Assembly (NCBI GenBank): GCA_000092065.1 | Contig: CP000584.1 | Direction: 5' to 3' (one strand) | Source of the DNA: Ostreococcus lucimarinus | Taxonomy: Eukaryota | Length of the DNA stretch: 64,000 bases | Shown here: positions 9,175 through 56,370 of the stretch, piece after piece | Layout of the letters: the number at the start of each line of letters is the position of its first letter | Numbering within the stretch: the stretch's first letter is position 1 | Translations under genes and position numbers: made by a program | The notes under the pieces: model-generated | Told to the model about the DNA's origin: nothing | Databases searched by the model: none | Seen by the model: only the letters and a program-made list of their open reading frames with translations

Positions 9175-9912
9175 TTAAATACCGACGGCTTTTAAGACGT
9201 CGGCGATCTCGGGATGCGCACCCGGGAGCGCGTCGGCCCAAGCGTATTCGACGTCGTCGCCGGCTAAAACGAACGTGCCGCCGAGACGCAACACACCCTC
9301 TGGAACGCCCTTTTGACCCTTCTTGATCGGCGCCAACTTCCCCGCGTTCCCGAGATACGCCAACCAATCCTTGAACGAAAAGTTCGTCGGCTTCAAATCC
9401 ACCTTCTCCGGCTTGGCGTCGGTAAATTTCCCGAATCCGCACGCGTCGTACAGCGCGAAATCGTCGCTATCGTCGACGAACGCGATGTCGCTCGGAATCT
9501 CCGGATTCAACTCCAAAAACGTCCTCAACTGCTCCGCCGTCCCGAGACTCACGAGCGTCACGCTCCCGCCCGCCGCCTCGATCCGTCCTCGACTGTCCGC
9601 CACGCTCCGCGCGTAGCTCCAACAAAACAGTCACGCGAGGTGACGAAGCACGACGACGACGTTCGGCGCGCCCGACGTCGCGCGTCCGAGCGGCGCGCGC
9701 GTCCCGTCGGCGCCGACGATCTCGCACGCGCGCAGCGCGGCCGCGGAGACGCTCGCGCCGTTGATGGTCGCCGTTCGCGCGCCGACGTCGTCGTCGACCG
9801 CGCACGCGATCTCGCCGCAGTCGAGCGCGCGCGGCGCGACGCGGCGCGCGGCGCGCGCGCGACGCGCGGCGACCGGCGCGGGCGCGACGGTCGGCGCGCG
9901 CGCGGCGCGCAT
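9175..9912 (-). CDS. SELU: Selenoprotein U (SelU / PRXL2-FAM213 thioredoxin-like family) with an in-frame UGA (Sec) codon at 9631-9633
   Basis: ORFs 9631..9912 and 9175..9603 are in the same minus frame, separated only by TGA (plus 9631-9633, tca) and 9 sense codons. The read-through gives ...GAPNVVVVLRHLA-U-LFCWSYARSVADSRGRIEAAGG...VLRLGGTFVLAGDD... This matches the PRXL2A redox motif (VRRPGCFLCREEA, CxxC becoming UxxC) and the downstream GGVFVVGSG region. ATG at 9910-9912 and TAA at 9175-9177. Confidence 0.75.
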
Positions 9913-9995
9913 GGCGTCGCTCGAGCGTCGCGATGTGACTCGCGCGCGGTGCGCGGTCGCGCGTCAGACGCGCGCGCGGCGCGACGGCGGCGACG

Positions 9996-10868
9996 ATGCC
10001 GGCGCGCGCGCGCGGGGCGACGCTCGCGTACGACGTCCCGAGGCTTCGCCTGGACGCCGCGACGCGCGCGGAGGTGGACGCGCTCCTGCGACGACGCGCG
10101 CCGTTGATTTTGGTGGATGACGACGCGCGCGCGCGCGTGCCGCGGTGGACGACGGAGACGCTCGCGCGCGCGGCGAGTCGCGACGCCGTCCCGCTCGAGC
10201 GCACGGGCGCGAACGAACGCGCGTGCGTCTTGACGGAGTATCTCAAGTTTGAAGACGAAGAGACGCGCGGGATGTACATGCGAAACTTGCACCTGTCGCG
10301 GTACTTTCCGAAGCTCGCCGAGGAGATTCGGTTGCCGGAGGATTTGTTCGGCGAGAACGCGCTGGCGGACGAGACGAAAACGCCGAACGCGCCCGCCGTC
10401 TGGCGGAATTGGTTCGAGCTGTTCGTGTGTCACGCGAAGCACTGCGCCGGGTTTCCTTTTTTACATCGCGATTCGTGCTGCGTGCACGCGGCGTCGTATC
10501 AAATTCTCGGTCGCAAGCGCTTCACGCTGTTCGCGCCGAGCGAAGGTCCGCGACTGTACCAATCCGGCGGCACTGGGAATCGTTCGATGATCGAAGACAT
10601 CGACGCCCCGGACGTCTTCGAGCGATATCCAGAGTTTCGACGCGCCCGCCGCTTAACGGTGGACGTCTCGGAGGGGGAAATATTAGTCGTGCCGTCGATG
10701 TGGTGGCACACCGCTTCGCCGCTCCCGTGCGAAGCCTCGGACGACGTCTGCGTCAGCGTCGCCGCGTCCTTCGTCGATGATTCCGTGTACGAAAACTTCT
10801 TAGACGCGCACGCGGAGTTTCAGGCGATGCAAAGCCTCGTCGCCGCCGGCGCGGCGAAGATGTTGTAG
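9996..10868 (+). CDS. JmjC/cupin-fold Fe(II)/2-oxoglutarate oxygenase (JMJD/FIH-like)
   Basis: The 290-aa ORF contains WFELFVCHAKHCAGFPFLHRDSCCVHAASYQILGRKRFTLFAP...GEILVVPSMWWH, a typical JmjC double-stranded beta-helix core with an HxD...H metal triad. Confidence 0.65.
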   Translation: MPARARGATLAYDVPRLRLDAATRAEVDALLRRRAPLILVDDDARARVPRWTTETLARAASRDAVPLERTGANERACVLTEYLKFEDEETRGMYMRNLHLSRYFPKLAEEIRLPEDLFGENALADETKTPNAPAVWRNWFELFVCHAKHCAGFPFLHRDSCCVHAASYQILGRKRFTLFAPSEGPRLYQSGGTGNRSMIEDIDAPDVFERYPEFRRARRLTVDVSEGEILVVPSMWWHTASPLPCEASDDVCVSVAASFVDDSVYENFLDAHAEFQAMQSLVAAGAAKML

Positions 10869-12957: not shown

Positions 12958-15642
12958 CTAGTCAACTCGCGAAATTGTCGCCATTTCGTTCATTACCTGG
13001 CCGTTCTCGACCCATGATAACTTCAGACGGAGCGCTATCGGCTTGCCTTCGTGTCCCGCCGCCGCCGAGACGAGCATGTTTTGCGTCACCGGCGCGCTCG
13101 ATGATATCGTCGACCCACTCGCCGCTTGCATGCTAAGAGTCATGGTTTTAGGAACCGCTGCGTGTAGAGAAAAGTTTTCGATATCAGCTGGACCCGCGTT
13201 AACGTAGCGAGCGCTCACGAGCGTCTTGCTTTGGTCGAGCTGATTCGGCTTTGACGCCGACAAGAAGATTGACAAAGAACCTTTCGCGTACGCCGGTTGC
13301 GGTGCTGTCGGAGGCGTGGGGGCCGTAGGCGCACCCAGCGCATCGATCAAGGATCCGGTAGAGGACGAAGAAACCACCGGGACATCGTCTGACATTAGAT
13401 CCATCAAGCCCGCGACGGCAGCCGGATGTGCCGCGTCCATGTTAGCAAACGGATCCGTCGTGGGCACTGGCGAAGACGACGACATCAGATCGCCGAGAAC
13501 ATCAACACGTGCCGAAGTAATAGTATGTGACACCGATGCCGAGCTCATATCGGTGCTACCGAAAAGATCAGCCAACGCGTCCGGCGCCGACGCCTTCGGT
13601 GGCGCGCTCGCCGGTATCGCTACGTCGGCTAGCATGTCACCGAGTAAATCCATCGCCTGACTTTGTTTCGCAGGCGTCACCGGCGCCGACGTCGGCGCAT
13701 CTGCCGAACTAGGGCTGAGTAAATCGTTCAACAAGTCGGCGCCGCTAGTTTGCGCCTGCGACGAGTCACCTTCATCGAAATTCAACAAGTCGCCAAAGCT
13801 TCTCGCCGGTCGAGCCGCGTCCGCAGCCTTTTTCTGAGCTAGAGTTTCCATGGTATCCGCAGCGACGAATTTCGGTGCCTCGGGAGGTGGCATGTGCTCG
13901 AAGAGCATATCCCGGAGATCTGGCATCTTTTCAAACATCGATTTGTACTCGTGCGCGCGCTTTTGCGTTTCGAGCTCGAGTGTTGTCTCATACTTGGCCA
14001 AGACGGGTATGATGACGGCTTGTTCGCTCGGTTCGCGCACCGCAATCTTGGCAAGCGCCGTCATGACTAACGGTCTCAACATCAGGTACTTTTCCTCGCT
14101 CAGAATCGCGATCATAAGCTTCGTGACATCGTTATGCTTCACCTTGGTCAATACTTCGTCCTCGACGGACGGCGCGTGCACCATCGCGTCTGAGTATTCC
14201 CCGCACACCCACACCGCGACTGCGCACAAACGCACGGGAGCATAATCGTCGCACGCCGCGCGATACAATGAACGCGCAGCGTAGCCGTGAAGCTGAGGCG
14301 TCCGCGCGACGAGCCCCATGAAATCGTTGCACTCGAGCTCGTCAATGTACTGCCCAGCGCGAATGAGGAGGGCGATGAACGTGTCAATGTACCACTGCTT
14401 ACTCGGCGAAAACTTCAATGCCAAGGAGGATATTTTCTTTGCCAACTCACACTTGAACTCCTCATCGCACACCTCCAAGTACTCGAGCAACTCATGTGAC
14501 AGCGTGGTGACGTTCTTGGCGTTCACCAAGCCGTACACTAATTGCAGCGCGCTTCGCCGAATGGTGATGTCCGCGTCTTTCACGCAATTCACGATGATAG
14601 CGCGGTGACGTTGGATGGCTTGCATGTCCACCTCGACAACTTTCGCGAGCGTATTCAGCGCGACGTAACGTATGTTGTTATCCTTGTTCTGTAAAAACCT
14701 GCCCAGAATGTTCACCGCCAGCACGCGCAAACCACCCACGGCCTCGATGGCGATGATGGTCTCGACAGCCTCGTACAGAATAGCGTTCCCGGCATTCTTC
14801 GCGCCATCCGTGTTCGACGCGATCTGCGCCAATATGTCGCTCATCGCATCGCTCGCGTCCGCGTCGCCTCGACCGAGCACGCGAAGCAATCGTAAAATCG
14901 CCACTTGCAAAAACGGATCCGCGTGACCGGCGATGTCGTGCTCAACACTCTTCCCCGCGTAAATCAACGACTTCAAAACCTTGCACAACTGCGGCACCTG
15001 CGCTCGCATTCTCTGCCGCACGTCGTCATCGTCTTCACACATCTCCGTCGCCAGCGTACACGCCGCCAGCAGCACCCCGTGATGCCTATCGCTCAACAAC
15101 TTTTCCGCCGCCGGCACGAACCCCTCCGTCAACTCTGGCACTTTTTTAATCACCCTCGTCGCCGTCAGCGCCGCCTTCTTCCTCACGTACGAATTCCCGT
15201 GTCCCATCAACTGCTCAACCTCCCCCGCCACGTCCCTCGCCATCTCCGCGCTGCATATGCTCCCCAACATGCACAACCCGAGTCCCACCACGTAGTGATT
15301 CTTATGACTCAAGTCGTTCTTCACGCTATTCGTCACCAGCATCGTCACCTCCTGGTCCTCGTCCAGCAGCAGCATCAGCCCCAGGTACCCGATCCGTTTC
15401 TCCGGGAACCCGTTCCTCGCCGTCAATCGCACGCACTCCATCTGCCCGAAGTGCGTCGCGTGTCCGAGCATGTGCACGAACATCAGCTTCGCGACGTTTC
15501 TCGGGACGAATCGCGCCTCGTCGGGGTTCCTGAACGACTCCCGAATCGCGCTCGACTCGCGCGCGATCACCGCGCGCTCCTCCGCCGCGGTCTTGCACTC
15601 GCGCACCTTGCGGATGAGGTCCCGCAGGCGCAGCGTCGACAT
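12958..15642 (-). CDS. AP1G: AP-1 adaptor complex gamma-adaptin large subunit
   Basis: The 894-aa N-terminus MSTLRLRDLIRKVRECKTAAEERAVIARESSAIRESF...NVAKLMFVHMLGHATHFGQMECVRL...FPEKRIGYLGLMLLLDE is near-colinear with gamma-adaptin. A C-terminal gamma-ear domain is present. Confidence 0.9.
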   Translation of the reverse strand: MSTLRLRDLIRKVRECKTAAEERAVIARESSAIRESFRNPDEARFVPRNVAKLMFVHMLGHATHFGQMECVRLTARNGFPEKRIGYLGLMLLLDEDQEVTMLVTNSVKNDLSHKNHYVVGLGLCMLGSICSAEMARDVAGEVEQLMGHGNSYVRKKAALTATRVIKKVPELTEGFVPAAEKLLSDRHHGVLLAACTLATEMCEDDDDVRQRMRAQVPQLCKVLKSLIYAGKSVEHDIAGHADPFLQVAILRLLRVLGRGDADASDAMSDILAQIASNTDGAKNAGNAILYEAVETIIAIEAVGGLRVLAVNILGRFLQNKDNNIRYVALNTLAKVVEVDMQAIQRHRAIIVNCVKDADITIRRSALQLVYGLVNAKNVTTLSHELLEYLEVCDEEFKCELAKKISSLALKFSPSKQWYIDTFIALLIRAGQYIDELECNDFMGLVARTPQLHGYAARSLYRAACDDYAPVRLCAVAVWVCGEYSDAMVHAPSVEDEVLTKVKHNDVTKLMIAILSEEKYLMLRPLVMTALAKIAVREPSEQAVIIPVLAKYETTLELETQKRAHEYKSMFEKMPDLRDMLFEHMPPPEAPKFVAADTMETLAQKKAADAARPARSFGDLLNFDEGDSSQAQTSGADLLNDLLSPSSADAPTSAPVTPAKQSQAMDLLGDMLADVAIPASAPPKASAPDALADLFGSTDMSSASVSHTITSARVDVLGDLMSSSSPVPTTDPFANMDAAHPAAVAGLMDLMSDDVPVVSSSSTGSLIDALGAPTAPTPPTAPQPAYAKGSLSIFLSASKPNQLDQSKTLVSARYVNAGPADIENFSLHAAVPKTMTLSMQAASGSTISSSAPVTQNMLVSAAAGHEGKPIALRLKLSWVENGQVMNEMATISRVD

Positions 15643-15707
15643 GATTCGCGCGCCGAGCGGACCCGGGCGTCACACTCTGCCGCGCCGCGTCGCGATTCGC
15701 GCGAGCG

Positions 15708-16967
15708 ATGCGCGCGCACGGCGTCGTGCTCGCGCTCGAGCGCGACGCGCCGTTCGGAGACGCGCTCCTGCGCGACGGCGACGCGTCGAGATACGACCTG
15801 GAGTGCGGCATGGCGCCGCTCGCGCACCACGCGCTGCGCGCGATCGCGTCGATGCGGCGACATCGCTGCGAGAAAATCACCGTCGTGTGCGCGGGAGACG
15901 CGCACGCGAGCGTCGCGCGCGAGCGAATCGAGCGATGGCGGGGAGAACCGTCGAGCGCGCTGCGAGAGGCGCCGACGATCGACGTGGTGGCGGCGGACGA
16001 GGGGACGGACACGGCGCGCGCGCTGGCGGCGTGCGAACGGTTCGCGGACGAGACGACGACGACGCTGCTGGTCGTGCAGGGAGACGTCGTGACGGATGTC
16101 GCGCTGGATGATGTGCTGAGCACACATTTGGTGAACGCGGCGACGGCGACGTGCGCGCTGGCGAAGAAACGGGCGTGGGCGGAGGTTGAGACGAAGGCGG
16201 GGCGAGCGCCGAAGGGGATGCGATACGTCGGGTTGAACGCGGATGAGACGCGCGTGGTTTTTCTCGCGGGAGGCGAACACGACGAGGCGAAGAAACGGTT
16301 GAAGTTGCAGCGGTCGGCGCTGAACGCGACGGCGGAGATGGTGATCAGGACGGATGTGATCGACGTGGGGATTTACGCTTTGGAGGCGCGAGAGACGTTC
16401 GCGGCGCTGCGAGAGAAGACGCATTTGAAGAGCTTACGGTTCGACTTGGTGCCGCACTTCGCCGCCGAGCAGTTTCGCGGCACCACCGCGGGCGGGGTGG
16501 CGGCGTACATGGTGAAGCCGGACAAGTATTGCGTCGCCGTGGATACGGCGAAGCCGGCGCTTCTCGAGGCGTCGCGAGAAATCGCCGCCGAGTTCCATCA
16601 CTTGCTCGAACGACCTCTGAGCAAGTACGACAACGTCGTCGACCCATCAACGGTGATCGGGGCCAAGAGTACGATCGGACCGGGATGTGCGGTGGCTGGT
16701 CAGTGCACGTTCAAGGACAAATGTTCGGTGAAGAAATCCGTCGTCGCCGCGGATTGCGTGTTTGGGTCGGGCGTTAAAATTTCCAACTCTCTCATTCTTA
16801 GAGGCGCCGTCGTGCACGATGGCGCACAGATTCAAGGCTGTATCGTCGGTCCCGGCGCCGTCATCGGCGCGCGTGTCACGGCAAAGGATAGCATCATCGG
16901 CGCCGCGTACGAAGTCGAAGAAGACGCCGACTTGGACGCCGAGACCGTGGTGGTCCAGAACAAGTAG
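15708..16967 (+). CDS. EIF2B3: Translation initiation factor eIF2B gamma subunit (nucleotidyltransferase plus left-handed beta-helix)
   Basis: LLVVQGDVVTDVALDDVLSTHLVN aligns with human eIF2B-gamma [24 protein letters not shown]. The C-terminal hexapeptide repeats IGPGCAVAGQCTFKDKCSVKKSVVAADCVFGSGVKISNSLILRGAVVHDGAQIQGCIVG match the eIF2B-gamma tail. Confidence 0.75.
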   Translation: MRAHGVVLALERDAPFGDALLRDGDASRYDLECGMAPLAHHALRAIASMRRHRCEKITVVCAGDAHASVARERIERWRGEPSSALREAPTIDVVAADEGTDTARALAACERFADETTTTLLVVQGDVVTDVALDDVLSTHLVNAATATCALAKKRAWAEVETKAGRAPKGMRYVGLNADETRVVFLAGGEHDEAKKRLKLQRSALNATAEMVIRTDVIDVGIYALEARETFAALREKTHLKSLRFDLVPHFAAEQFRGTTAGGVAAYMVKPDKYCVAVDTAKPALLEASREIAAEFHHLLERPLSKYDNVVDPSTVIGAKSTIGPGCAVAGQCTFKDKCSVKKSVVAADCVFGSGVKISNSLILRGAVVHDGAQIQGCIVGPGAVIGARVTAKDSIIGAAYEVEEDADLDAETVVVQNK

Positions 16968-18433: not shown

Positions 18434-18456
18434 ATATTGATTGATTTACATATTAC

Positions 18457-18990
18457 CTACAGCTCGTCGCGCGCGGTTGGACACGACCCGCTCGCCGCGT
18501 CGCACGTCTCCTCCTCCGCGAACGCCGCCGCGGTGTCGAACTCCAATCCATTCAGCACAAACCACGTGTTCGCGTCGTATTCGTCCCCGACCACTATTTT
18601 CCCATCCATCGTCACCGTCAACGAGCGCTCCGCGCCCTTCATCGTCACCTTCCACGGTTCGTCTCGCGTCGGTCGCGCCTCCGCCGGCAGCGGCGTCGCC
18701 AGCGCGTCGCTCCCCGCCTCCGTCGTCGCCGTGTTCGAGAACCATCCCCTGAACCGCGCCCGTCCGCCCGCGTCGACGTAATAACTCGGTCGATCGTACG
18801 ATTTCACCGTCTCGAACGCGTCCTCGTCCAGCGCGAGCTCGCGCCAGCGCGACGCCGCGGCCGATGGCGCCGATGGCTCGACCGACGCCTCCGCCGCGGC
18901 GCGTCCGCGCGTCGCCGCGCCGAGCGCGAGCGTCACCGCGATCGCGACGCGCGTCGACCACCCCGCGCGCGCGCGCGCGCGTCGCGACAT
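18457..18990 (-). CDS. Small secreted/ER-resident protein with a signal peptide and C-terminal RDEL retrieval motif; function unknown
   Basis: MSRRARARAGWSTRVAIAVTLALGAATRGRAAAEA looks like a cleavable signal peptide. The mature region (...FETVKSYDRPSYYVDAGG...WKVTMKGAERSLTVTMDGKIVVGDEYDANTWFVLNGLEFDTAAAF...) ends in ...SGSCPTARDEL, a KDEL-type ER retrieval signal. The upstream extension of ORF 18457..19239 is trimmed away. Confidence 0.5.
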   Translation of the reverse strand: MSRRARARAGWSTRVAIAVTLALGAATRGRAAAEASVEPSAPSAAASRWRELALDEDAFETVKSYDRPSYYVDAGGRARFRGWFSNTATTEAGSDALATPLPAEARPTRDEPWKVTMKGAERSLTVTMDGKIVVGDEYDANTWFVLNGLEFDTAAAFAEEETCDAASGSCPTARDEL

Positions 18991-19697
18991 CGATCTCCGA
19001 GCGCGCGCGTGTGCCGACGCGGCGACGCGCGATGATGATATGATGGCGTTCGCGCGCGTATTATATGAACGACCCCCGTTTCGCTTGAGTCGCGAACCGT
19101 CGCAGCGAATCCGACGGATGGTCGATCCCGCGACGACGCGCGCGACACAACACGACGACGCCATGAACGCGATCACGCAAACCATCGCCAGCTCGGCCGT
19201 CCGCGTCAACGCGACGTCCGCGAACGCCAAGCGCGTCAACCGGTGCGTCGGCGACGCGAACGCGACGACGAACGCGCGATGACGCGCGCGACGCGACGAC
19301 GCGAGCGATCGCGCGATCGCGCGCGCGCGCGCGGAGATGGACGCGCGCGCGCGAGTTCTGGGCGTGGAAACGCGCGCGCGCGTGGATGAATTTGCGTCGC
19401 GTCGAACGACGCGCGCGAAGGCGAGGGAGACGGGATCGGAGACGGCGCGGGCGTCGAACGTCGATGGGGGCGCGGTGAAGCCCTATCCACTGGATAAACC
19501 GACGCGCGCGGCGGTTCGCGCGGCGAACGGGGCGTTCGTGGACGAAGGTTCGGGCGAGGATGGGTGATTCATCGCGGGCGAGGGATAGCGCGCGAGCGAG
19601 CGCGGACGTGGGATGAGGACTGACGTGATGACGCGGGTGATTTTCGAAACGCAGCGCGACGCGACTCTCCGCGACGCGCGCCGTCGCCGGCGTCCCG

Positions 19698-20015
19698 GTG
19701 AAGAGGTGCGCGGAGGCGATTTTCGCGAACGCGCGCGGTGTCGTCGTCTTTCGTGTGCGAAGTGGGATAACGCCTGAACGCAGACTGACGTTTGATTATT
19801 TTTTCGTACGACGCAGCGCCCGTGTCGCGCCGCGCAAGTCCGTCCGCGGCGGCGCCGCCGTGACCAAGGCTTCCATGGTTGAGGTTGCGCAAATCGCCAA
19901 CCAGGGTGCGGAGATTGCGTCTATCGCCACGACGTGCTTCATCATCACCCTCATCGGTCTCGCCTTCGGTTTTGTGCTCCTTCGCGTCGAGGACTCCGTC
20001 GTGAACGGCGAATAA
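19698..20015 (+). CDS. PETM: Cytochrome b6-f complex subunit VII (PetM), nuclear-encoded; last exon plus an in-frame upstream extension
   Basis: The C-terminus MVEVAQIANQGAEIASIATTCFIITLIGLAFGFVLLRVEDSVVNGE matches PetM (spinach ..[34 protein letters not shown]). The in-frame extension back to 19698 (RSARVAPRKSVRGGAAVTKAS) resembles a transit-peptide tail but has no ATG. A candidate 62-nt GTGCGA...CAG intron with a T-rich tract lies at about 19755-19816. Exon 1 with the ATG is unresolved. Confidence 0.55.
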   Translation: MKRCAEAIFANARGVVVFRVRSGITPERRLTFDYFFVRRSARVAPRKSVRGGAAVTKASMVEVAQIANQGAEIASIATTCFIITLIGLAFGFVLLRVEDSVVNGE

Positions 20016-20273
20016 ACGCTCGTCGATCGGTTTTGACCACGGCGGCGTTCGGAGGGCGATTTGTTTGATTTTTGCTCAGCGAGTAGCGACGTCGCGCGCC
20101 ACGCGTGCGGCGACACATAGAAGCGATAAATATTACATCACACGATGTGCGTAACCACCGCGTTTTCCACGCACCAGCGCCCGCGTCCGTCGCCGAGCCG
20201 TTCGCCGACTCTCGCGCGTCTCGTCTCGCGCGAGGCGCGAGGCACACGCCGCGTCCGCACTTCAGAGCGTGAG

Positions 20274-23942: not shown

Positions 23943-24020
23943 TTGAAACGTACGACGGAGGCGCGCGCGCGCTCGAACGACTTCGGCGACGACGACGCGC
24001 GACACTCGACGACGCCGCCG

Positions 24021-24878
24021 ATGATGGCGCCGCGCGAGCGCGCGAGGACGATGTCTCGCGCGAGCGCGCGATCCCGCGCCGCGGTCGTCGCGGTGGTTTT
24101 CGCGGCGTGCGCGCTGTGCGGCGTCGTCGACGCCGCGCGCTTATCCGCCGCGGATCGCGCGGGCGACGACCTCACCGCGCTCGGCGCGGACGCCGTGCCC
24201 GAGGGCGACGGCGGATTCAACGACGGGTTCGTGTCTTCGCTCGGCATGGTGCTCGTGAGCGAACTCGGGGACGAGACGTTCATCATCGCCGCCATCATGG
24301 CGATGCGAAACTCGCGAGGCGTCGTCCTCGCGGGCGGGCTGTGCGCGCTCACCATCATGACCGTGCTGTCCGTCATGCTCGGGTTGGTGGTGCCGCAGTT
24401 GATTAGTAAAGAGACGGTGAGTAAGGCGGCGTTCGTTTTGTACACGTTCTTTGGATGTCGGTTGATGTACTTGGCGTACAAATCGGACGGCGCGGCGTCG
24501 ATGACGGGGGAAATCGAAGAGGTTGAAGAAAAGTTGGAAAAGGGAACGTCCGTGAGCACGCGCACGCGCGTGGCGCGTGTTTTGGCCAAGATTTCGTCCC
24601 CAGTGTTCATCGAAGCCTTTGTGCTGATCTTTTTGGCCGAGTGGGGTGACAGAAGTCAGATCACGACCATCGCGTTGGCGACGCATAAAAACCCGTACGG
24701 CGTCGCCATCGGCGGTATCCTGGGCCACACGTTCTGCACCTCCTTGGCGGTTGCTGGAGGCAGAATCGTCGCCATGAAGATTTCCCCTCGAACGGTGTCG
24801 TTCGTCGGTGGTATTCTCTTCTTCGGTTTCGCGTTGCACGCGCTTTATTTCGGCGCGCCCGGAACTGAGCACATGTGA
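24021..24878 (+). CDS. GDT1/TMEM165/UPF0016 family cation (Ca2+/Mn2+) transporter (PAM71-like)
   Basis: The two signature E-x-G-D-(K/R)-(T/S) motifs are present (ELGDETF and EWGDRSQ) in two homologous 3-TM halves, with a signal/transit N-terminus. The first ATG is at about 24021 (MMAPRER). The ORF-table start 23943 is a TTG. Confidence 0.85.
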   Translation: MMAPRERARTMSRASARSRAAVVAVVFAACALCGVVDAARLSAADRAGDDLTALGADAVPEGDGGFNDGFVSSLGMVLVSELGDETFIIAAIMAMRNSRGVVLAGGLCALTIMTVLSVMLGLVVPQLISKETVSKAAFVLYTFFGCRLMYLAYKSDGAASMTGEIEEVEEKLEKGTSVSTRTRVARVLAKISSPVFIEAFVLIFLAEWGDRSQITTIALATHKNPYGVAIGGILGHTFCTSLAVAGGRIVAMKISPRTVSFVGGILFFGFALHALYFGAPGTEHM

Positions 24879-31489: not shown

Positions 31490-34400
31490 TCAATTTTCAA
31501 ATTCTAAGACTTGCGCTTCGTTCGCGTCGCACTGTACCGCCATCGCGAGGAGAGGACCAATTTGAACGGTGAATAAATCGCAGAGAGCGTTCGATAGCTC
31601 GCTTGGTTTATCCTCACGCCGAATGAGGGCGGTAAGGAGCGGGTAGATATCGGAGAGGTGCGTTTTGAAACTCGCCGCGTCGAGCGAGCGAACGGCGTCG
31701 AGCGCGTCGACGCACACCTGCGAGTACACGCGCGAGTACTCGCGCAAGTCGACGTCCGATGTCACGGTCTGTAAGCATTCGTAGTTCTTGAATGCGACCG
31801 ACGCGGTGCGCGCGAGCTGATTCGATCGCGCTTCAGATCCATTCGCCGTTACTTGCAAACCGGCGAGCGTACGGAGCGCCAGAGACGCGGCGCTCGCTTC
31901 GACGCCGAGGACGTGTGGACGGGCTTCGTGAATGATGGCTGACACGCGCGGTATCGTTTCGTGCTCGCTGAAACATATGAGCGAAAGTGATGCCTTTGAT
32001 GCGGTGGCGTACACACCTTCAAGAACATCGAGTAACACGAAGAGTGTGTCGACGTTGAAAGACGCGCGCGACGACGCCTCGGCAGACAAGTCGTACGCGG
32101 CGGACACCAGGAGCGCTTGAGTCTTAACGCGCACGATCGCCGCATTGACGTTCACCTCCCATGCGGCATCATCGTGACCTCGAATGAAAACGTCGAAGTC
32201 AGGCGTTGTTTCACCGAAAGCCTTCTTCAGCGCCTCCATGCACTGGTGCCACTCTCGCTCCTTGATTGACGAAGCGCCATTGATGAGCAAGCGCTTGAAA
32301 GCCACGACGCCGCACGCGGCGAGCTGCTCGTGCGAACGCGACGCGAGACCGCACAATAGCTCGAGCAAATCTGGCATAACTCCGGCCTCGACGATTGGTT
32401 CGTGAAACTGCACCGCCAAATCGACGACGAGTTCAAGACAACGCGTACACGTGCCGTACAACCAATCATCGATGTCCTCCGCCGCTACTTCGTACTCGAC
32501 ATCGCCGCCAATCGTTCTCGTGCTCGGCATGATATCCGCACGGACGTGATCAAATATAGGGAAAAGAATGCGTCCGTACACGCGTGACCAAAACCCAGGA
32601 GCGAACGAGCCGCCGTGGAACTTGAGCGTGTCGAACAACACCTCGAGCGCTGAGGTGCGAATTTCTGCGCGAGGGTCAAACGTGAGCTCAGAAAGTCCAG
32701 CCAAAAGAGGGAACCAAAAGTATGTGTGCGCATCGGCGTCTGTGAAACACGTCGTGGTGACTGTTGACTTCATCTGTGTCACTTCCACGACACCATCCGT
32801 CGCGAGCTGCTTCTCCGTCGCGGCGGTTTCTTCCAAGTCTCCGAGCGCGCCTTCGGCGAGCTTGAGAGCGCAAAAGCGCAGAAACGCGAGGGCGTTCAAG
32901 CAAACTTCCGAACCCGCCTCAGAGTTTGTGAACGCAACGAGACAATTGACGCAGTCGGTAAACGCCACTGTATCGGTTTCGATGATGTAGTGAAAATGCT
33001 CGCGAATAATTCGCTCGATGGTCTGGAACGCCAGCGCCACGATTTGGCTACTTTCGTCCGCCGCCGCCGTGGTGAACACCATGAACATCGACTTCCAACC
33101 AGACTTGATATGCGCCACGCGAGCCTGCACCATCTGCGAAACACACCGAATGATGAGCTCTCTGATTTCGACAGCCGGAGACTGACGCATGACGATGACA
33201 AATGGTCGCAAAAATTCGTTTTGGAACGAGTAGTTGGCCAATTCGGTACGACTTAAGAATTTCATGGCGAGCTGTCGAAGAGAGTCGACTACTTGCATGG
33301 ATATTTGCAAGTTTGGCGAGCATCCCACCTTGACAAAGAAGTCGCTCAACACTTGCCATACTCTGGCCCAGATAAAACGAATACGATCCATGTTGAATGA
33401 AGCAACCTCGACAATCTTTCCGAGCGCGTACGCTCTCGGATGATTTGAAGACGTTTCTTCAATAGCAAGTTCACACAAGCTTCGAACGAAACCCACGATA
33501 GCATCACCGCTGAGATTGACGCTGGCGTGGAACAAATGATCAAGTTCATCGGGATGAAGTTGTTCGAGCACAGCTCGATCAGGTGGGTTCAAACCATCCA
33601 AGCCAAGTAAATCAAACTTTTGTTCGACCTCGACAGTGCTCGACGAATCGTCTCGCACGTTAACGTTGCTTGACTGCGGTGCGAGTGGAGACTTCAGTGC
33701 TCGGTCTGATGATATCGAACGCCGGAAGAGCCTAGGCCGGGCTTGTTTTTGTGCGTCGTCATCTCTACTGTATCCGGACTCCGAAAACAACGAACTATCG
33801 TTGAAACCGCTCGCGAGCGCATACAGATGCTCGTATCTACTCACACAAGCCAGAATTGTAGTCCACATGTCCCCGAGATCGTTTCCATTTTCGATCGCAA
33901 CGCGCACTAAAGTCTTCACCGCGATGACATTCTTCGTACGCATTGAGTGTGCATGATGCAAAGAAGTCAACTTTGTAAGGGACGCGATAAATGTGTCTCG
34001 AGTCTCTTGCATGCCGAGCGTCGAAGTGACGCTGATGACTCTTCGGAAACACTCCAAACAGTTCGATATCACGGACACACTTTCACTGTCTTCAAATGCA
34101 GTACCAAGCAGCGACAGTATGGGATTCCAGATCAATTCAAGCATCGGTTTCGCGCACCCGGCCTCCACGACGGTCAGAAAGCCTTTCGTCGTTGCGGCCC
34201 GCGCGCGAACTTGACTTATCAAATCGGCGGTGTCGATTTGTATTGTTTCTTCTTCTCGCTTACCAGACATGAGCGAAAAGAGGACATCCATACCTAATCT
34301 AGCGGAAAAGTTGTTCTTATCTTTCTTTTCCGCGGCGCTCAGAGCCACCTCTGCTGGCTCCTTCAATTTGATCTCGTTATTCACGATGCGGTCGTACAAA

Positions 34401-36775
34401 TCCTCGAGCACCTCGCTCGGCAAGTCTTGTCCGTCGTCGATCCCTCTGTTATTCCGAACAAACCCTTCCTTGGTCATTTTATTCTTAACCTGTGGGTTAT
34501 GCGCGTCCGTATTAAGCATGATGACAGAAAACGCCAAGACGTAAGCGGTGTCGGCACTCTTGTACACTTCCGGATTCAACTTATGGTAGCGCTCGGCAAA
34601 CTTCTCCATGAGCCTATCGATTTTTTGAGACTCACCTGGGAGGCGAAAGCCTTCTAAAAACTTGCGAATCGCGTCGTCAAGAGTTAGAGATGTGAAATCT
34701 AGCGCGTCAACGTATGCGTGCATGACCTGTAGCATCGGATCGTCGCGTTCACCCAAGTAATCGCCGACTACAGTCTTGTCCAGCCCAGGCGTCGTGCGTA
34801 AGAACTCGGCTATTTCATTGTGAGACGTCCCAAGGCGCCCAATCGATTGCAGATAAGCCAGACCTTTCTTCGCTTTCTTGTTGAAGAGAGTGATTCCCTC
34901 TTGGAACTCTTGCTTATCAGCCTTGAGCTTCGCTATGCTATCACCCAGATCCGCCGGGCTGCTCGTCTTCAAAGGTGTCGAAAATCCAGACTCAGATTCT
35001 TCCACGACGTCGTGCTGACTATCGCTCGTGCTCGCGTCGCCACCACTTTGTACCCTCACCCAATCGTCAAGTGATGCGACGAGGGTCGTCAAACATTCAA
35101 GCGCTTCGAGCTTGAGCACGGACTCGCGGGCCGCCTCTGGGCCGCTCGCCTGACTGACATCGACACCCTGCGCGATGCGAACCAAGGACAGAACACAGCG
35201 CTCGAACACGTTTTGGCTGTCTAAATCGCAGTCATAGTTCACGAAGAGATCAACCATGAGCTGCGAGTCGGCGCAGATGATTTGAAATCCCTTGACGAGC
35301 GTCGCGCGTTGATTGTATGCGCTCAACGGCGCGCCCTCCACGAGCTCGAGCGGCTTGAGCAACAACATAGGGAAAAAGAAACCAATTTCAGCCTTGAGGT
35401 AGGCCCGGTATCGAGTAAGCAGAGTCAAAAAGATTGAGCACGCTAGCTGATACGCTTCTGGAACATTAGGTGTCGCGTTGCTGACGATTGCGTCGCACAG
35501 ATATTCACGCATGGCGTCGGCAAAACGTGAGCTCGAAGAAAATGCATCCCCGGCGTTTTCGATGATAATCTTGAGCAACTGCAGCGACAACACTTTGCTT
35601 CGAACGAGCGCAACACCATTGACGTCGGAGCCTGGTTTTTTCGAGAGCTTGCACAGCGACCTAAAAACTAAAAAGGCATCTGTTTCGAGCTCAGAAGCTT
35701 GTTCTGTGCCCGAGGTGCGAGCGGGCGTCATAGCTCCCGGCGAAAACGCGTCCAACGACTGCGTCACCGCGTTCGGAGTCATAGGGGCGGTATCATTATC
35801 GAATTCGCTCTCCGTAATCTCGTGCTCGATTGCGTCCGATTTCACCACCGCGTCTGGGTCTGAAAAGTAATTGAACGATCCCACCGAATTCATATCCGTC
35901 GTGACTTTATTTACGAACGACTGTACCGCTGCCGACATGGCCGTAACGCCGTCAACTTCGGCTTCGGAACCAATCGGTCGAAGCAGGTCCGCAACGACAA
36001 TAGTCGGCGCTGAAGCGTGCGGGTCATCCGCCTCCAAACGATGAAAAACAGTCGTCAACATTTGCGTTAGCGTCGCCTTGGCTGTGTTTTGATTCACCTC
36101 TGACTTGCTCGAAAGGTAAATGTTGTAGCACGTCCGCACGACGCGCAAGAGCGCTCTATCGTGCACCTCGAACGTACGACTGCTCACTGCGGTGAGTATG
36201 CCCTTCAACACTTGTAACTCGACCGCCTCGTCTCGCACCTCCGCGGCGCCGCAGATCGCGTCCACGATTTCACCCGCGTGATTTCGCGCACCCGACGGCT
36301 CCGATTCGTCCCGCTCGCGCGACGCCGCGACCGTATCGCTCGCAACGTCGCCGTCATCCCGCGCGTCGACATCAGCCACGGCCTCCGCTCGTCCAGCCGC
36401 GTCGCTCGTCGACTCGAACCGCTCCAGCGTCCCGCCCGCGAGCGTCGCCCGTCCCTCCACCAAACCTCTCGAGATGAGCACCTGCACCGCTCCCAGCGCG
36501 GCCGCGATCACGCTCGCCGACCCGCTGTCCATCGCCGCGCGCAGTGGTGGCAGCACGACATCCATCTGCGCCTCTCGCAGCGCGTCCCCGCGTCCGCTCG
36601 TCGTCGTCGTCGTCGTCGTCGACGCCTTCGTCCCCAACGATTCAAACGTCCCATCCCGCGTCATCGCTCGCACCGCATCGATCGCATCGATGATAGCCGC
36701 GTGTTTCTTCGTCCCGCACGCGCGCTGGACGCGCTCGAGCGCGCCCTCGACGACGTCCACCGCGCCAGATGGCAT
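31490..36775 (-). CDS. Sec7-domain ARF guanine-nucleotide exchange factor, BIG/GBF (brefeldin-A-inhibited GEF) type
   Basis: The 1761-aa ORF has a central canonical Sec7 domain (FNKKAKKGLAYLQSIGRL...LGERDDPMLQVMHAYVDALDF...FRLPGESQKIDRLMEKFAERY...AYVLAFSVIMLNTDAHNPQVKNKMTKEGF) flanked by DCB/HUS and HDS-type helical regions. Confidence 0.95.
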   Translation of the reverse strand: MPSGAVDVVEGALERVQRACGTKKHAAIIDAIDAVRAMTRDGTFESLGTKASTTTTTTTSGRGDALREAQMDVVLPPLRAAMDSGSASVIAAALGAVQVLISRGLVEGRATLAGGTLERFESTSDAAGRAEAVADVDARDDGDVASDTVAASRERDESEPSGARNHAGEIVDAICGAAEVRDEAVELQVLKGILTAVSSRTFEVHDRALLRVVRTCYNIYLSSKSEVNQNTAKATLTQMLTTVFHRLEADDPHASAPTIVVADLLRPIGSEAEVDGVTAMSAAVQSFVNKVTTDMNSVGSFNYFSDPDAVVKSDAIEHEITESEFDNDTAPMTPNAVTQSLDAFSPGAMTPARTSGTEQASELETDAFLVFRSLCKLSKKPGSDVNGVALVRSKVLSLQLLKIIIENAGDAFSSSSRFADAMREYLCDAIVSNATPNVPEAYQLACSIFLTLLTRYRAYLKAEIGFFFPMLLLKPLELVEGAPLSAYNQRATLVKGFQIICADSQLMVDLFVNYDCDLDSQNVFERCVLSLVRIAQGVDVSQASGPEAARESVLKLEALECLTTLVASLDDWVRVQSGGDASTSDSQHDVVEESESGFSTPLKTSSPADLGDSIAKLKADKQEFQEGITLFNKKAKKGLAYLQSIGRLGTSHNEIAEFLRTTPGLDKTVVGDYLGERDDPMLQVMHAYVDALDFTSLTLDDAIRKFLEGFRLPGESQKIDRLMEKFAERYHKLNPEVYKSADTAYVLAFSVIMLNTDAHNPQVKNKMTKEGFVRNNRGIDDGQDLPSEVLEDLYDRIVNNEIKLKEPAEVALSAAEKKDKNNFSARLGMDVLFSLMSGKREEETIQIDTADLISQVRARAATTKGFLTVVEAGCAKPMLELIWNPILSLLGTAFEDSESVSVISNCLECFRRVISVTSTLGMQETRDTFIASLTKLTSLHHAHSMRTKNVIAVKTLVRVAIENGNDLGDMWTTILACVSRYEHLYALASGFNDSSLFSESGYSRDDDAQKQARPRLFRRSISSDRALKSPLAPQSSNVNVRDDSSSTVEVEQKFDLLGLDGLNPPDRAVLEQLHPDELDHLFHASVNLSGDAIVGFVRSLCELAIEETSSNHPRAYALGKIVEVASFNMDRIRFIWARVWQVLSDFFVKVGCSPNLQISMQVVDSLRQLAMKFLSRTELANYSFQNEFLRPFVIVMRQSPAVEIRELIIRCVSQMVQARVAHIKSGWKSMFMVFTTAAADESSQIVALAFQTIERIIREHFHYIIETDTVAFTDCVNCLVAFTNSEAGSEVCLNALAFLRFCALKLAEGALGDLEETAATEKQLATDGVVEVTQMKSTVTTTCFTDADAHTYFWFPLLAGLSELTFDPRAEIRTSALEVLFDTLKFHGGSFAPGFWSRVYGRILFPIFDHVRADIMPSTRTIGGDVEYEVAAEDIDDWLYGTCTRCLELVVDLAVQFHEPIVEAGVMPDLLELLCGLASRSHEQLAACGVVAFKRLLINGASSIKEREWHQCMEALKKAFGETTPDFDVFIRGHDDAAWEVNVNAAIVRVKTQALLVSAAYDLSAEASSRASFNVDTLFVLLDVLEGVYATASKASLSLICFSEHETIPRVSAIIHEARPHVLGVEASAASLALRTLAGLQVTANGSEARSNQLARTASVAFKNYECLQTVTSDVDLREYSRVYSQVCVDALDAVRSLDAASFKTHLSDIYPLLTALIRREDKPSELSNALCDLFTVQIGPLLAMAVQCDANEAQVLEFEN

Positions 36776-36810
36776 CTTTCGATTCGCTCGAGAATCGCCG
36801 CCTCACGTCA

Positions 36811-36870
36811 CCGTCTCGCGCGTTCGCGACGCGTTCGCGATCGACGCGCGTTCGCGATCTCGCGCGTTCG
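36811..36870. promoter_or_regulatory. Tandemly reiterated GCGTTCGCGA motif in the shared divergent promoter of the Sec7-GEF and TRAPPC2 genes
   Basis: ccgtctcgcgcgttcgcgacgcgttcgcgatcgacgcgcgttcgcgatctcgcgcgttcgcgcg. The core cgcgttcgcga occurs at least 4 times within about 60 bp, between the start codons at 36775 (-) and 36985 (+). Confidence 0.45.
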
Positions 36871-36984
36871 CGCGCGCGCGCCGGGCGCGGTCGCGGCGTC
36901 GCGCGTCGCGGTGTCGCGGTCGCGGAGTCGGCGACCGCGATGTCGTGGCGCGAGTAATCCGCATTCGGCGCCTCTCGACGCGCG

Positions 36985-37533
36985 ATGTCGTACTTCGCGC
37001 TCACGGTGGTGAGCGCGAACGACGTCCCGATATACACGCGCGACTTCACCGCGCGCGAAGACGACGGCGCGCGCGCGGAGGTGCGTCTGAGGGCGAATGT
37101 TTGTTCGAACGCGCGAAGGATGCGAGACCGCGCTCGGAAGACTGACGACGACGACGACGACGACGACGCGCAGACGAGCGCGCCGCTGGACGCGCCGATG
37201 CGCGAACTCGTCGTGCGCGCGGCGCTCGATTTCGTGGACGAACGGTCGTGGGAGACGAACGCGACGTACCTGCGCGTGGTGGATCGATTCAACGACGTCG
37301 ACGCGCACGCGCACTGCGCGCCGACGCGCGCGCGCATGGTGTTGCTCACGAACGGCGCGAGGACGAGCGGAGGCGAGGAAGCGGTGCGAGGGTTTTTCGG
37401 GGAAGTGCACGAGGCGCTGGCGATCGCGACGATGAATCCGATGCTCGGCGAGGACGAGGCGTTGGGGAGCGCGTTCGACGAGCGAGCGCGGTCGGCGGCG
37501 GCGCGGCGGTTGGGCGCGCGCGCGCCCGAGTGA
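36985..37533 (+). CDS. TRAPPC2: TRAPP complex subunit 2 (sedlin)
   Basis: MSYFALTVVSANDVPIY...ELVVRAALDFVDERSWETNATYLRVVDRFNDV...GFFGEVHEALAIATMNPM...SAFDER aligns with human sedlin ([31 protein letters not shown]...NFFTDVYDLYIKFSMNPF...SAFDRK). An inserted poly-Asp loop is present. Confidence 0.8.
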   Translation: MSYFALTVVSANDVPIYTRDFTAREDDGARAEVRLRANVCSNARRMRDRARKTDDDDDDDDAQTSAPLDAPMRELVVRAALDFVDERSWETNATYLRVVDRFNDVDAHAHCAPTRARMVLLTNGARTSGGEEAVRGFFGEVHEALAIATMNPMLGEDEALGSAFDERARSAAARRLGARAPE

Positions 37534-43955: not shown

Positions 43956-44741
43956 GCGTCGGCGTCGCGCGATGGCGGCGCGAACGGGCGCGCGCGCGTC
44001 GTCGTCGGCACATCGCGACGGCATGCCCGCGGTCGTGCGTCGAGGCGAAGAGTCGAGCTCGGACGACGACGACGACGACGACGACGTCGACGCCGTCGCG
44101 TGCTCGCCCGAGCGCGCGCGCGCGGCGTCGCCGACGACGCGAAGCGCGCGCGCGCGCGCGACGAACGACGGCGACGCGCGCGACGACGCGCGGTCGAACG
44201 CGGCGCGCGTCGTCGAGCGGCGACGCGCGGTGGTGGCGCGCGACGCGAGCGACGACGACGGAGGCGGCGCGCGCGCGCGCGCGGGCGCGGACGGACGGGG
44301 GGAGGGCGCGCCCAACACTAAATTCGTCGCGGCGTGCGTCGCGCCGCTGCGAGACGGACCGATCGCGCGCGCGGCGGTCGCGGCGAAGGCGCGCGATCGA
44401 GATTTGGGGATATTATCGCAGACGTCGGCGTCGATGACGAGGGTGAACGCGCACGCGAGGGAGGCGGCGTTGGCGGCGAGGGAGGCGGCGGATACGACGC
44501 GGCGGTTGACGCGACGGCACGGACGAGACGACGACGACGACGACGAGGCGTAGGCGTGGGCGGCGCACGTTTCGGGGCACACGGAGAGGTGGTATTTCTT
44601 AGACGACGTGTAATAGAGCTTAGCGATGCACCACGAGGGCGACGTCGTCGCCGCGCGCGCCGCGGCGCGCGCGCTCGCCGGCTCGAACGAACCGCCTCGC
44701 CGCACACGCGCGCGCATCGATCGCTCGCCCGCGCGCGCGCC

Positions 44742-48437: not shown

Positions 48438-48540
48438 CGACATTAAGCATCTAATACAGCATCTAATACACCACAACCGGTGATCACTAACGCGCGACTA
48501 AGCATCTAATACACCACAACTGGTGATCACTAACGCGCGC
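48438..48540. repeat. About 50-bp AT-rich direct repeat (2 copies)
   Basis: agcatctaatacaccacaaccggtgatcactaacgcgcga... is followed by ...agcatctaatacaccacaactggtgatcactaacgcgcgc. A partial third copy (catctaatacagcatctaatac) lies just upstream. The repeat sits between the DMT start and the cyclophilin stop. Confidence 0.8.
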
Positions 48541-56037: not shown

Positions 56038-56370
56038 ATGGCGACGTCGGCGCGCGACGTCGGCGCGAGGGACGACTCGCGAGACGCGGTGACGGCGTTC
56101 GCGAGCGCGGGGGCGGCGTCGCTCGCGAGCGCGGTGTATTTCTGGAGGAAACGCGCGACGATGCCTTTTAAAATCAGCGCCGCGGCGACGTGGTTGACCG
56201 CGGGACCGGCGGCGGTGCTGTGGTACGCCCCGTCGCGGGCGTCGCTGGAGCGGGAGTTGGCGGAGAAGGCGGCGGCGCGAGGGGCGAGCGCGCGCGAGGA
56301 CGCGATACGGCGCGACGGGGTCGCGGCGGCGAGGACGCTGTTGGAGAAGAGAGCGAGCGAGGAAAGCTAG
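56038..56370 (+). CDS. Possible small membrane protein (2 hydrophobic segments)
   Basis: It lies in the 430-bp gap between the SCS-beta start and the SET stop. MATSARDVGARDDSRDAVTAFASAGAASLASAVYFWRKRATMPFKISAAATWLTAGPAAVLWYAPSRASLERELAEKAAARG... I recognise no family. Confidence 0.25.
   Translation: MATSARDVGARDDSRDAVTAFASAGAASLASAVYFWRKRATMPFKISAAATWLTAGPAAVLWYAPSRASLERELAEKAAARGASAREDAIRRDGVAAARTLLEKRASEES

What the first reader, a model, noticed from the sequence alone, without database searches (positions are those of the whole stretch)
36775..36985. Two membrane-trafficking genes (Sec7 ARF-GEF and TRAPPC2) share a 210-bp divergent promoter with a reiterated GCGTTCGCGA element
The BIG-type ARF-GEF (minus, start 36775) and sedlin/TRAPPC2 (plus, start 36985) are both Golgi-trafficking components transcribed head-to-head. 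The spacer contains at least 4 tandem copies of cgcgttcgcga (36811-36870). This is the kind of arrangement expected for a co-regulating bidirectional promoter. The motif is not one I can assign to a known factor.
Basis: seen in the sequence. Interest (0 to 1): 0.5.

Follow-up and report, generated by a model that had tools for sequence, protein, structure and literature searches.

The report
Ordinary CG-rich repeat in shared promoter
Two Golgi-trafficking genes do sit head-to-head, and that pairing is kept in ten related algal lineages, but the repeated CGCGTTCGCGA word between them is a species-specific tandem duplication typical of this genome, with only weak signs of being a regulatory element.

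Summary
The gene calls are right. A 1761-aa BIG/Sec7-type ARF-GEF starts at 36775 (-) and sedlin/TRAPPC2 starts at 36985 (+), 209 bp apart. The repeat is real but at slightly different coordinates: CGCGTTCGCGA exact at 36819, 36830 and 36847, plus CGCGTTCGCGC at 36863.

The head-to-head pair is kept in all 10 related lineages recovered from metagenomes, down to 47% ARF-GEF identity, while other neighbours change.

The four-copy array occurs only in the window's species. The window holds 38 comparable CG-rich tandem arrays, about one per gene and mostly near gene 5' ends; this one ranks 18th. As a single word, GCGTTCGCG occurs at chance frequency, with 15 of 26 hits in coding sequence. Its sub-words are no denser in non-coding than in coding DNA. 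It is absent upstream of the window's adaptin and GDT1 genes.

One hint remains. A single copy lies 17-89 nt upstream of the ARF-GEF ATG in 4 of 10 orthologous spacers (nominal P about 0.005; 0.25 in an unbiased scan).

Verdict: a conserved divergent pair with an ordinary, lineage-specific promoter repeat. The co-regulation motif is not established. No tool named the organism; the genome looks like a compact prasinophyte (Mamiellales-like).

The parts
31490..36775 (-). BIG/Sec7-type ARF-GEF coding sequence (1761 aa, single ORF)
   Evidence: Pfam DCB, HUS, Sec7, HDS, Mon2_C and BIG2_C. The N-terminus aligns with orthologues. The exact protein is found on 4 metagenome contigs.
36776..36984 (.). 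209-bp divergent spacer between the two start codons (GC 0.73)
   Evidence: It has the same length in 14 same-species contigs.
36814..36873 (+). Reiterated CG-rich array: four copies of CGCGTTCGCG(A/C), and TCTCGCGCGTTCGCG twice, lying 43-97 nt upstream of the ARF-GEF ATG
   Evidence: (family D4).
36819..36829 (+). copy 1, CGCGTTCGCGA
36830..36840 (+). copy 2, CGCGTTCGCGA
36847..36857 (+). copy 3, CGCGTTCGCGA
36863..36873 (+). copy 4, CGCGTTCGCGC (one mismatch at the last base)
36874..36952 (+). Adjacent second degenerate CG-rich repeat (units around GTCGCGG; periods 8, 23 and 29)
   Evidence: TRF rows 36862-36952; family D3.
36780..36797 (.). Inverted repeat CGATTC-N6-GAATCG, 5 nt upstream of the ARF-GEF ATG
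   Evidence: hairpin in the fold. CGATTC is a predicted MYB word in Ostreococcus RCC809 (PMC10662239).
36985..37080 (+). sedlin/TRAPPC2 exon 1
37081..37173 (+). Probable in-frame 93-nt intron (GTGCGT...CAG)
   Evidence: Orthologues L005, L011, L014 and L015 need an intron at the same point to keep the reading frame. The spliced protein aligns end to end with sedlin 1H3Q.
37174..37533 (+). sedlin/TRAPPC2 exon 2 (includes the stop codon)
   Evidence: Pfam Sedlin_N; solved-structure matches.

Best explanation
The 209-bp spacer is the shared 5' region of a conserved head-to-head pair, BIG ARF-GEF and sedlin, in a very compact, CpG-rich green-algal genome.

The reiterated CGCGTTCGCGA is a young, lineage-specific local tandem duplication: four copies whose starts lie 11, 17 and 16 nt apart. 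It most likely arose by replication slippage, like the roughly one-per-gene CG-rich arrays found near other gene 5' ends in this window.

It lies 43-97 nt upstream of the ARF-GEF ATG, so it probably sits in that gene's core promoter or 5' leader (inferred; no transcription start site data). It most likely acts only as generic CpG-dense promoter DNA, not as a dedicated co-regulatory or secretory-pathway element.

The stable coupling of the two genes is best explained by the short spacer. A breakpoint there would damage both promoters, which is the usual reason divergent pairs persist.
For: - Array only in this species: orthologous spacers from 10 lineages carry at most single copies.
- Arrays of this type are generic: 38 merged TRF loci with score >= 60 in 64 kb. 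This one ranks 18th, and 24 of the 38 lie within about 300 nt of a gene 5' end. Other divergent spacers carry their own private repeated words, for example 9825-10023, 44111-44283 and 56076-56136.
- The word is at chance frequency: 26 observed against 17.7 +/- 4.2 expected, or 22 without the array.
- 15 of 26 hits are in coding sequence. Density is 0.29/kb in coding DNA and 0.56/kb in non-coding DNA, which matches the 1.66-fold higher CGCG density of non-coding DNA.
- Sub-words have a non-coding/coding ratio of 1.0-1.3.
- No copy lies upstream of the adaptin or GDT1 genes.
- The pair is conserved in 10 of 10 lineages while flanking genes change (identity matrix).
- Head-to-head pairs with spacers of about 200 bp are the norm in such genomes (PMC4035068, PMC10662239).
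Against: - The pre-specified 9-mer GCGTTCGCG occurs as a single copy in 4 of 10 orthologous spacers, always 17-89 nt from the ARF-GEF ATG. Shuffles give an expectation of about 0.9 (P = 0.005; P = 0.001 on 8 spacers). Density there is 2.3/kb (4 hits in the 8 spacers; 1.3/kb over all 10), against 0.26-0.29/kb elsewhere in the same loci. An ancestral functional site amplified here is therefore not excluded.
- Copy number is invariant in 14 same-species contigs from different samples, and none of the 7 polymorphic spacer sites falls in the array. This is weak evidence: the chance of that under uniformity is about 0.12.
Confidence: 0.6

Rival explanations
1. Amplified ancestral binding site. A single GCGTTCGCGCG-type site for an unknown transcription factor is an old feature of the ARF-GEF-proximal part of this spacer. 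In the window's species it was multiplied into a cluster of four identical sites, which raises occupancy and the output of the ARF-GEF gene and perhaps of sedlin.
For: - The 9-mer is present in 4 of 10 orthologous spacers that are otherwise unalignable (L007, L013, L014, L015). One-mismatch versions occur in L005 and L008. All lie 17-89 nt from the ARF-GEF ATG.
- It is the top-ranked of the 171 9-mers of the window's spacer for sharing against shuffle expectation (P = 0.005).
- The array is invariant within the species.
Against: - The signal depends on how the motif is defined: exact 10-mer P = 0.075, one mismatch allowed P = 0.02.
- An unbiased scan gives a family-wise P of 0.25.
- Orientation differs: the word is on the sedlin-sense strand in the window, L008 and L013, and on the ARF-GEF-sense strand in L005, L007, L014 and L015.
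- It is absent from L011, L016 and L017; L012 has only the core-altered variant CGCGCTCGCG.
- The lineages are not independent.
- There is no enrichment in other non-coding DNA of the window.
- No cognate factor was found in the literature. The Ostreococcus E2F word is reported as GTTCCCC (PMC10662239).
Confidence: 0.25
2. Secretory-pathway regulon element. The word marks promoters of membrane-trafficking genes and co-regulates both genes of the pair.
For: Both genes act in Golgi traffic: BIG/Sec7 activates Arf, and sedlin is a TRAPP subunit (established knowledge). The pairing is conserved.
Against: - The only other trafficking or Golgi genes in the window, the adaptin large subunit (12958-15669) and GDT1 (about 24000-24878), have no copy upstream, even allowing one mismatch.
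- Hits to the word lie in or beside unrelated genes: DNA polymerase phi, a CLC channel, succinyl-CoA ligase, a short-chain dehydrogenase, SRR1 and TrmB.
- The array is not conserved.
- A chance pairing of two trafficking genes is expected a few times per genome when about half of all genes are in divergent pairs. This is an inference from PMC4035068, assuming roughly 4% of genes are trafficking genes.
Confidence: 0.05
3. 5'-leader RNA or DNA structure. The self-complementary CGCG units form a hairpin or cruciform that controls translation or initiation.
For: The units are partly self-complementary, and many short inverted repeats are present.
Against: - The ARF-GEF-sense RNA of 36776-36880 folds less stably than its shuffles (z = +1.71; 196 of 200 shuffles fold at least as well).
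- The whole spacer folded as DNA gives z = -0.65.
- No Rfam family reaches its threshold.
- No comparable element occurs in orthologues.
Confidence: 0.03

Closest known systems
[quoted passage not shown]
   Same: The two start codons are 209 bp apart on opposite strands. The orientation and adjacency are retained in 10 of 10 related lineages while other neighbours change. This matches the general finding that divergent pairs are preferentially conserved (context: PMC2993538, PMC2670823, PMC5654408).
   Different: Transcription start sites and co-expression are unknown here. In this kind of genome about half of all genes are in such pairs (PMC4035068), so the layout alone carries little information.
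Promoter-associated tandem repeats (as in about 25% of yeast promoters; Vinces et al. 2009, as cited in PMC3887541)
   Same: Short units are repeated within about 100 nt of a start codon. The array is lineage-specific, and similar arrays occur at many other 5' ends in the same genome.
   Different: There are only four copies, and no copy-number polymorphism was seen in 14 same-species contigs. The composition is CpG-rich rather than AT-rich. Any effect on expression is untested.
E2F sites (TTTSSCGC) and the Ostreococcus E2F word GTTCCCC
   Same: They share the core TTCGCG / TTCGCGC.
   Different: The T-run is missing (GTTCGCGA/C), and the word does not match the Ostreococcus form reported in PMC10662239. 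The resemblance comes from inspection and recall only.
CGCG-type promoter words (plant CAMTA 'CGCG box' vCGCGb; vertebrate TCTCGCGAGA of bidirectional CpG-island promoters)
   Same: Each unit contains two CGCG cores, and the array contains TCTCGCG and TCGCGA halves.
   Different: CGCG occurs 36-61 times per kb in this window, so the match has no discriminating power. This is recalled from memory and was not tested. The factors reported to bind TCTCGCGAGA are animal proteins (from memory); no counterpart in this alga was looked for.

Membership tests
BIG/Sec7-type large ARF-GEF | DCB, HUS, Sec7 and HDS domains in order, plus the BIG C-terminal region | tested here: met
   Pfam: DCB 65-251, HUS 365-523, Sec7 621-802 (E=4.7e-75), HDS 1172-1254, BIG2_C 1552-1735.
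Sedlin/TRAPPC2 (not TRAPPC2L) | Sedlin_N fold over the whole ~140-aa protein; closest to TRAPPC2/Trs20 | tested here: met
   Sedlin_N 5e-20. The spliced 151-aa model aligns at residues 4-139 with residues 5-132 of sedlin 1H3Q. The matching chains are TRAPPC2 (1H3Q, 2J3W, 7B6D) and Trs20 (7E2C).
Divergent gene pair / bidirectional promoter | Opposite strands, head-to-head, starts less than 1 kb apart | tested here: met
   ATGs at 36775 (-) and 36985 (+); spacer of 209 bp.
Divergent gene pair / bidirectional promoter | Arrangement conserved in related genomes | tested here: met
   Sedlin lies head-to-head with the ARF-GEF in L005, L007, L008, L011, L012, L013, L014, L015, L016 and L017. ARF-GEF identity ranges from 74% down to 47%.
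Divergent gene pair / bidirectional promoter | Both transcripts start in the spacer, and the two genes are co-expressed | not testable with these tools
   No transcription start site or expression data were available.
Functional cis-regulatory motif / cluster of identical binding sites | Word enriched in promoters relative to coding DNA | tested here: not met
   Non-coding/coding ratio is 1.0-1.3 for CGTTCGCG, GCGTTCGC, GTTCGCGA and GTTCGCGC. 15 of 26 hits are in coding sequence.
Functional cis-regulatory motif / cluster of identical binding sites | Conserved in orthologous promoters | tested here: inconclusive
   The array is not conserved. A single 9-mer occurs in 4 of 10 spacers (P = 0.005 as a pre-specified test, 0.25 family-wise; P = 0.075 for the exact 10-mer). 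Orientation varies.
Functional cis-regulatory motif / cluster of identical binding sites | Shared by functionally related genes (secretory pathway) | tested here: not met
   No copy with one mismatch or fewer lies upstream of the adaptin (12958-15669) or GDT1 genes. Only these two genes were available.
Functional cis-regulatory motif / cluster of identical binding sites | Known cognate factor | tested here: not met
   Literature searches found none. Reported Ostreococcus promoter words are GATATTT, GGATAG, CGATTC, GTTCCCC and CCACGTGG.
Slippage-type promoter tandem repeat | Head-to-tail copies of a short unit; similar arrays common in the genome; lineage-specific | tested here: met
   TRF periods 11, 17 and 28. 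There are 38 such arrays in 64 kb. The array is absent from orthologues.
Slippage-type promoter tandem repeat | Copy-number polymorphism within the species (typical, not obligatory) | tested here: not met
   All 14 same-species contigs have the same 209-bp spacer and an identical array.
Structured RNA element | Folding more stable than shuffles, or a match to a known family | tested here: not met
   z = +1.71 for RNA and -0.65 for DNA. The best Rfam hit scores 23 bits against a threshold of 67.

The most novel reading that the evidence does not exclude
GCGTTCGCG(C/A) is a real, anciently retained cis-element of the BIG-sedlin divergent promoter in this group of picoalgae. It would be bound by an unidentified factor and has been amplified to four copies in this species. 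The conserved pairing would then reflect selection to co-express an Arf-GEF with a TRAPP subunit, two parts of the Arf/Rab activation circuitry at the Golgi.
Probability: 0.12. Interest if true: 0.5.

Novelty: new member of a known kind. Interest (0 to 1): 0.22.

Why it matters
If the array were a true co-regulatory element, it would give a handle on how a minimal eukaryote coordinates Golgi traffic genes, and a promoter part for engineering picoalgae. As the evidence stands, the array is ordinary. The more durable result is that the BIG-sedlin head-to-head pair is kept across deep divergences in these compact genomes. That makes it a good test case for whether divergent pairs persist because of shared regulation or simply because short spacers cannot tolerate breakpoints.

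Tried and rejected
- **Metagenome-wide pattern scan.** I searched for two copies of the word 0-8 nt apart, as a substitute for a genome-wide search. It did not even return the window's own locus, so it was uninformative.
- **Naming the organism.** The closest ARF-GEF and aldolase relatives carry no species names. The taxon is inferred only from genome architecture: about 200-bp spacers, few short introns, GC about 0.63, a KNOX gene, green-algal best hits, and marine metagenome sources.
- **RNA or DNA structure.** There is no excess stability and no Rfam family.
- **Bacterial promoter and terminator scan.** Nothing was found, and it is not applicable to a eukaryote.
- **E2F, CAMTA CGCG-box and TCTCGCGAGA readings.** I considered these from memory and rejected them as membership claims. 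The T-run is missing, and CGCG is too frequent here to be informative.
- **Periodicity-based coding map.** It was too coarse, because the ARF-GEF gene has weak GC3. I replaced it with a map supported by Pfam matches. That map is still approximate at gene 5' ends, so the coding/non-coding counts carry some error.
Full report
**What is in the sequence**

The ORF 31490-36775 (-) encodes a 1761-aa protein with DCB, HUS, Sec7 (E=4.7e-75), HDS, Mon2_C and BIG2_C domains. This is a BIG/Sec7-type large ARF-GEF.

The ORF 36985-37533 (+) matches Sedlin_N (5e-20). Four orthologues need an intron at the same point to keep the reading frame. The in-frame stretch 37081-37173 (GTGCGT...CAG) is therefore probably a 93-nt intron. 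The spliced 151-aa protein aligns end to end with sedlin/TRAPPC2 structures and with yeast Trs20.

Both N-termini agree with those of orthologues. The spacer is 36776-36984, 209 bp, with GC 0.73.

**The repeat**

CGCGTTCGCGA is exact at 36819, 36830 and 36847, and CGCGTTCGCGC is at 36863. The longer unit TCTCGCGCGTTCGCG occurs twice, at 36814 and 36858. The coordinates are slightly off, and the copies are only partly contiguous.

The array lies 43-97 nt upstream of the ARF-GEF ATG and 111-170 nt upstream of the sedlin ATG. A second degenerate CG-rich repeat follows it, at 36874-36952.

**Is it more than chance, and is it special?**

Four copies in 55 nt reflect a genuine local duplication. Several results show that neither the word nor the array is special.

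- The core GCGTTCGCG occurs 26 times in the window, against 17.7 +/- 4.2 in dinucleotide shuffles. Without this array the count is 22.
- I built a gene map from Pfam matches to about 36 ORFs. On that map, 15 of 26 hits fall in coding sequence.
- Density is 0.29/kb in coding DNA and 0.56/kb in non-coding DNA, excluding the array. That matches the 1.66-fold higher CGCG density of non-coding DNA.
- Sub-words of the motif have non-coding/coding ratios of 1.0-1.3.
- TRF finds 38 separate CG-rich degenerate arrays with score >= 60 in 64 kb. This one ranks 18th. Of the 38, 24 lie within about 300 nt of an approximate gene 5' end.
- Other divergent spacers carry their own private repeated words, for example 9825-10023, 44111-44283 and 56076-56136.
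- The window holds two more trafficking or Golgi genes: an adaptin large subunit (12958-15669, -) and GDT1 (about 24000-24878, +). Neither has a copy upstream, even with one mismatch allowed.

**Related sequences**

The exact ARF-GEF protein, and a 1759-aa variant of it, lie on 14 metagenome contigs of the same species. All have the same 209-bp spacer and an identical array. The seven polymorphic spacer sites all fall in 36919-36945, outside the array.

Ten further lineages were recovered. Their ARF-GEF identity to the window ranges from 74% down to 47%. In every one, sedlin sits head-to-head with the ARF-GEF. After I corrected the start codons, the spacers measure 86-971 bp. The other neighbours change: a methyltransferase and a Na/Ca exchanger in the near group, and ABC1 or rhodanese in the far group.

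The pairing is therefore old and stable. None of these spacers has the array.

**A residual signal**

The pre-specified 9-mer is present once in 4 of 10 orthologous spacers (L007, L013, L014, L015). One-mismatch 10-mers occur in L005 and L008. All of these lie 17-89 nt from the ARF-GEF ATG.

Evidence for a real signal:
- Shuffles of each spacer give an expectation of about 0.9 spacers containing the word (P = 0.005; P = 0.001 on the first 8 spacers).
- Density is 2.3/kb in the 8 spacers (4 hits; 1.3/kb once L016 and L017 are added). It is 0.26-0.29/kb in genes and other intergenic DNA of the same loci.

Evidence against reading much into it:
- The exact 10-mer gives P = 0.075, and the one-mismatch version gives P = 0.02.
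- An unbiased scan of all 171 9-mers of the window's spacer gives a family-wise P of 0.25.
- The strand differs between lineages.
- The lineages are not independent.

I treat this as a lead, not a finding.

**Other tests**

- The array region folds less stably than its shuffles as RNA (z = +1.71), and the whole spacer is unremarkable as DNA (z = -0.65).
- No Rfam family reaches its threshold.
- The literature held no factor for this word.
- Reported Ostreococcus promoter words are MYB-type (GATATTT, GGATAG, CGATTC), E2F (GTTCCCC) and bHLH (CCACGTGG). The same paper reports an intergenic length peak near 200 bp (PMC10662239).
- In O. tauri, 2288 head-to-head pairs involve 3884 transcripts (PMC4035068). 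In this window, about 10 such pairs occur among about 36 genes.

**Interpretation**

My best reading (about 0.6) has three parts.
- The spacer is an ordinary CpG-dense divergent promoter of a compact prasinophyte-type genome.
- The array is a young slippage product, with no dedicated regulatory role.
- The gene pair persists because a 100-300-bp spacer cannot take a breakpoint without damaging both genes.

The main rival (about 0.25) is that an ancestral single site near the ARF-GEF start was amplified here. A secretory-pathway regulon (about 0.05) and a structural leader element (about 0.03) are poorly supported.

From established yeast work, recalled and not tested here, Sec7 and TRAPPII regulate each other through Arf1 and Ypt/Rab GTPases. 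Co-expression of the two genes would therefore make biological sense. That is a reason to test the idea, not evidence for it.

**Limits**

- No tool named the organism.
- Gene 5' ends in my map are approximate.
- The metagenome-wide motif scan failed, swamped by (CGCGTT)n microsatellites.
- No expression or transcription start site data were available.

Noticed in passing
window 36940-36957: There is a five-codon upstream ORF (ATG TCG TGG CGC GAG TAA) in the likely sedlin leader. Its first 11 nt context, CGCGATGTCGT, duplicates the context of the real start at 36981-36991. The upstream ATG is ATA in same-species contigs L002 and L003, so the upstream ORF is not fixed.
   Followed up: partly
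window 36919-36945: All seven polymorphic spacer sites seen among 14 same-species contigs fall in this 27-nt stretch. The remaining 182 nt of the spacer, including the array, are invariant.
   Followed up: partly
window 36780-36797: An inverted repeat CGATTC-N6-GAATCG lies 5 nt upstream of the ARF-GEF ATG. CGATTC is a predicted MYB word in Ostreococcus RCC809 (PMC10662239). CGATTCGC is 3.3-fold denser in non-coding than in coding DNA of the window.
   Followed up: no
window 31490-36775: The ARF-GEF gene has much lower GC (0.52-0.53 over 32-36 kb) and lower GC3 (0.64) than its neighbours, which have GC 0.6-0.7 and GC3 0.72-0.89.
   Followed up: no
window 37081-37173: Sedlin has a probable 93-nt intron that is in frame and free of stop codons, so a plain ORF reading gives a 182-aa protein with a spurious acidic insert (DDDDDDDD). 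Metagenome gene callers made this error (182-aa calls in L002, L003 and L138-L147).
   Followed up: yes
window 12958-15669 (-) and 15645-16967 (+): Another trafficking gene, an AP adaptin large subunit, is head-to-head with an eIF2B-epsilon/NTP-transferase-like gene. Their stop-to-stop ORFs overlap by about 25 nt, so the true spacer must be very short. It contains no copy of the motif.
   Followed up: partly
window 48458-48539: A 43-nt unit is repeated 1.9 times at 97% identity (AGCATCTAATACACCACAACCGGTGATCACTAACGCGCGACTA). It is unlike the CG-rich arrays elsewhere in the window, and it sits at the 5' end of the EamA-type transporter gene. It has the second-highest TRF score in the window.
   Followed up: no
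window 18434-20129: This 1.7-kb stretch has no Pfam-supported gene. It holds four copies of the 9-mer (19046, 19219, 19255, 19724) and two CG-rich arrays (18892-18988, 19251-19331).
   Followed up: no
L009 11957-13217 versus L008 10394-12550: Two contigs carry the identical ARF-GEF protein. Downstream, one has a 1572-aa reverse-transcriptase (RVT_1) gene where the other has a zf-CCCH gene. This looks like a retroelement insertion polymorphism.
   Followed up: no
protein P0124 (NCBI MDA9599196.1): A 1761-aa member of the window's ARF-GEF cluster is deposited in NCBI as 'DUF1981 domain-containing protein [bacterium]'. It is a eukaryotic algal contig mis-binned into a bacterial MAG.
   Followed up: no
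L023, L045, L091, L093, L103, L105, L112, L135 (metagenome contigs): (CGCGTT)n hexanucleotide microsatellites of four or more units are frequent in contigs of GC 0.60-0.67. Their source organisms were not determined.
   Followed up: no
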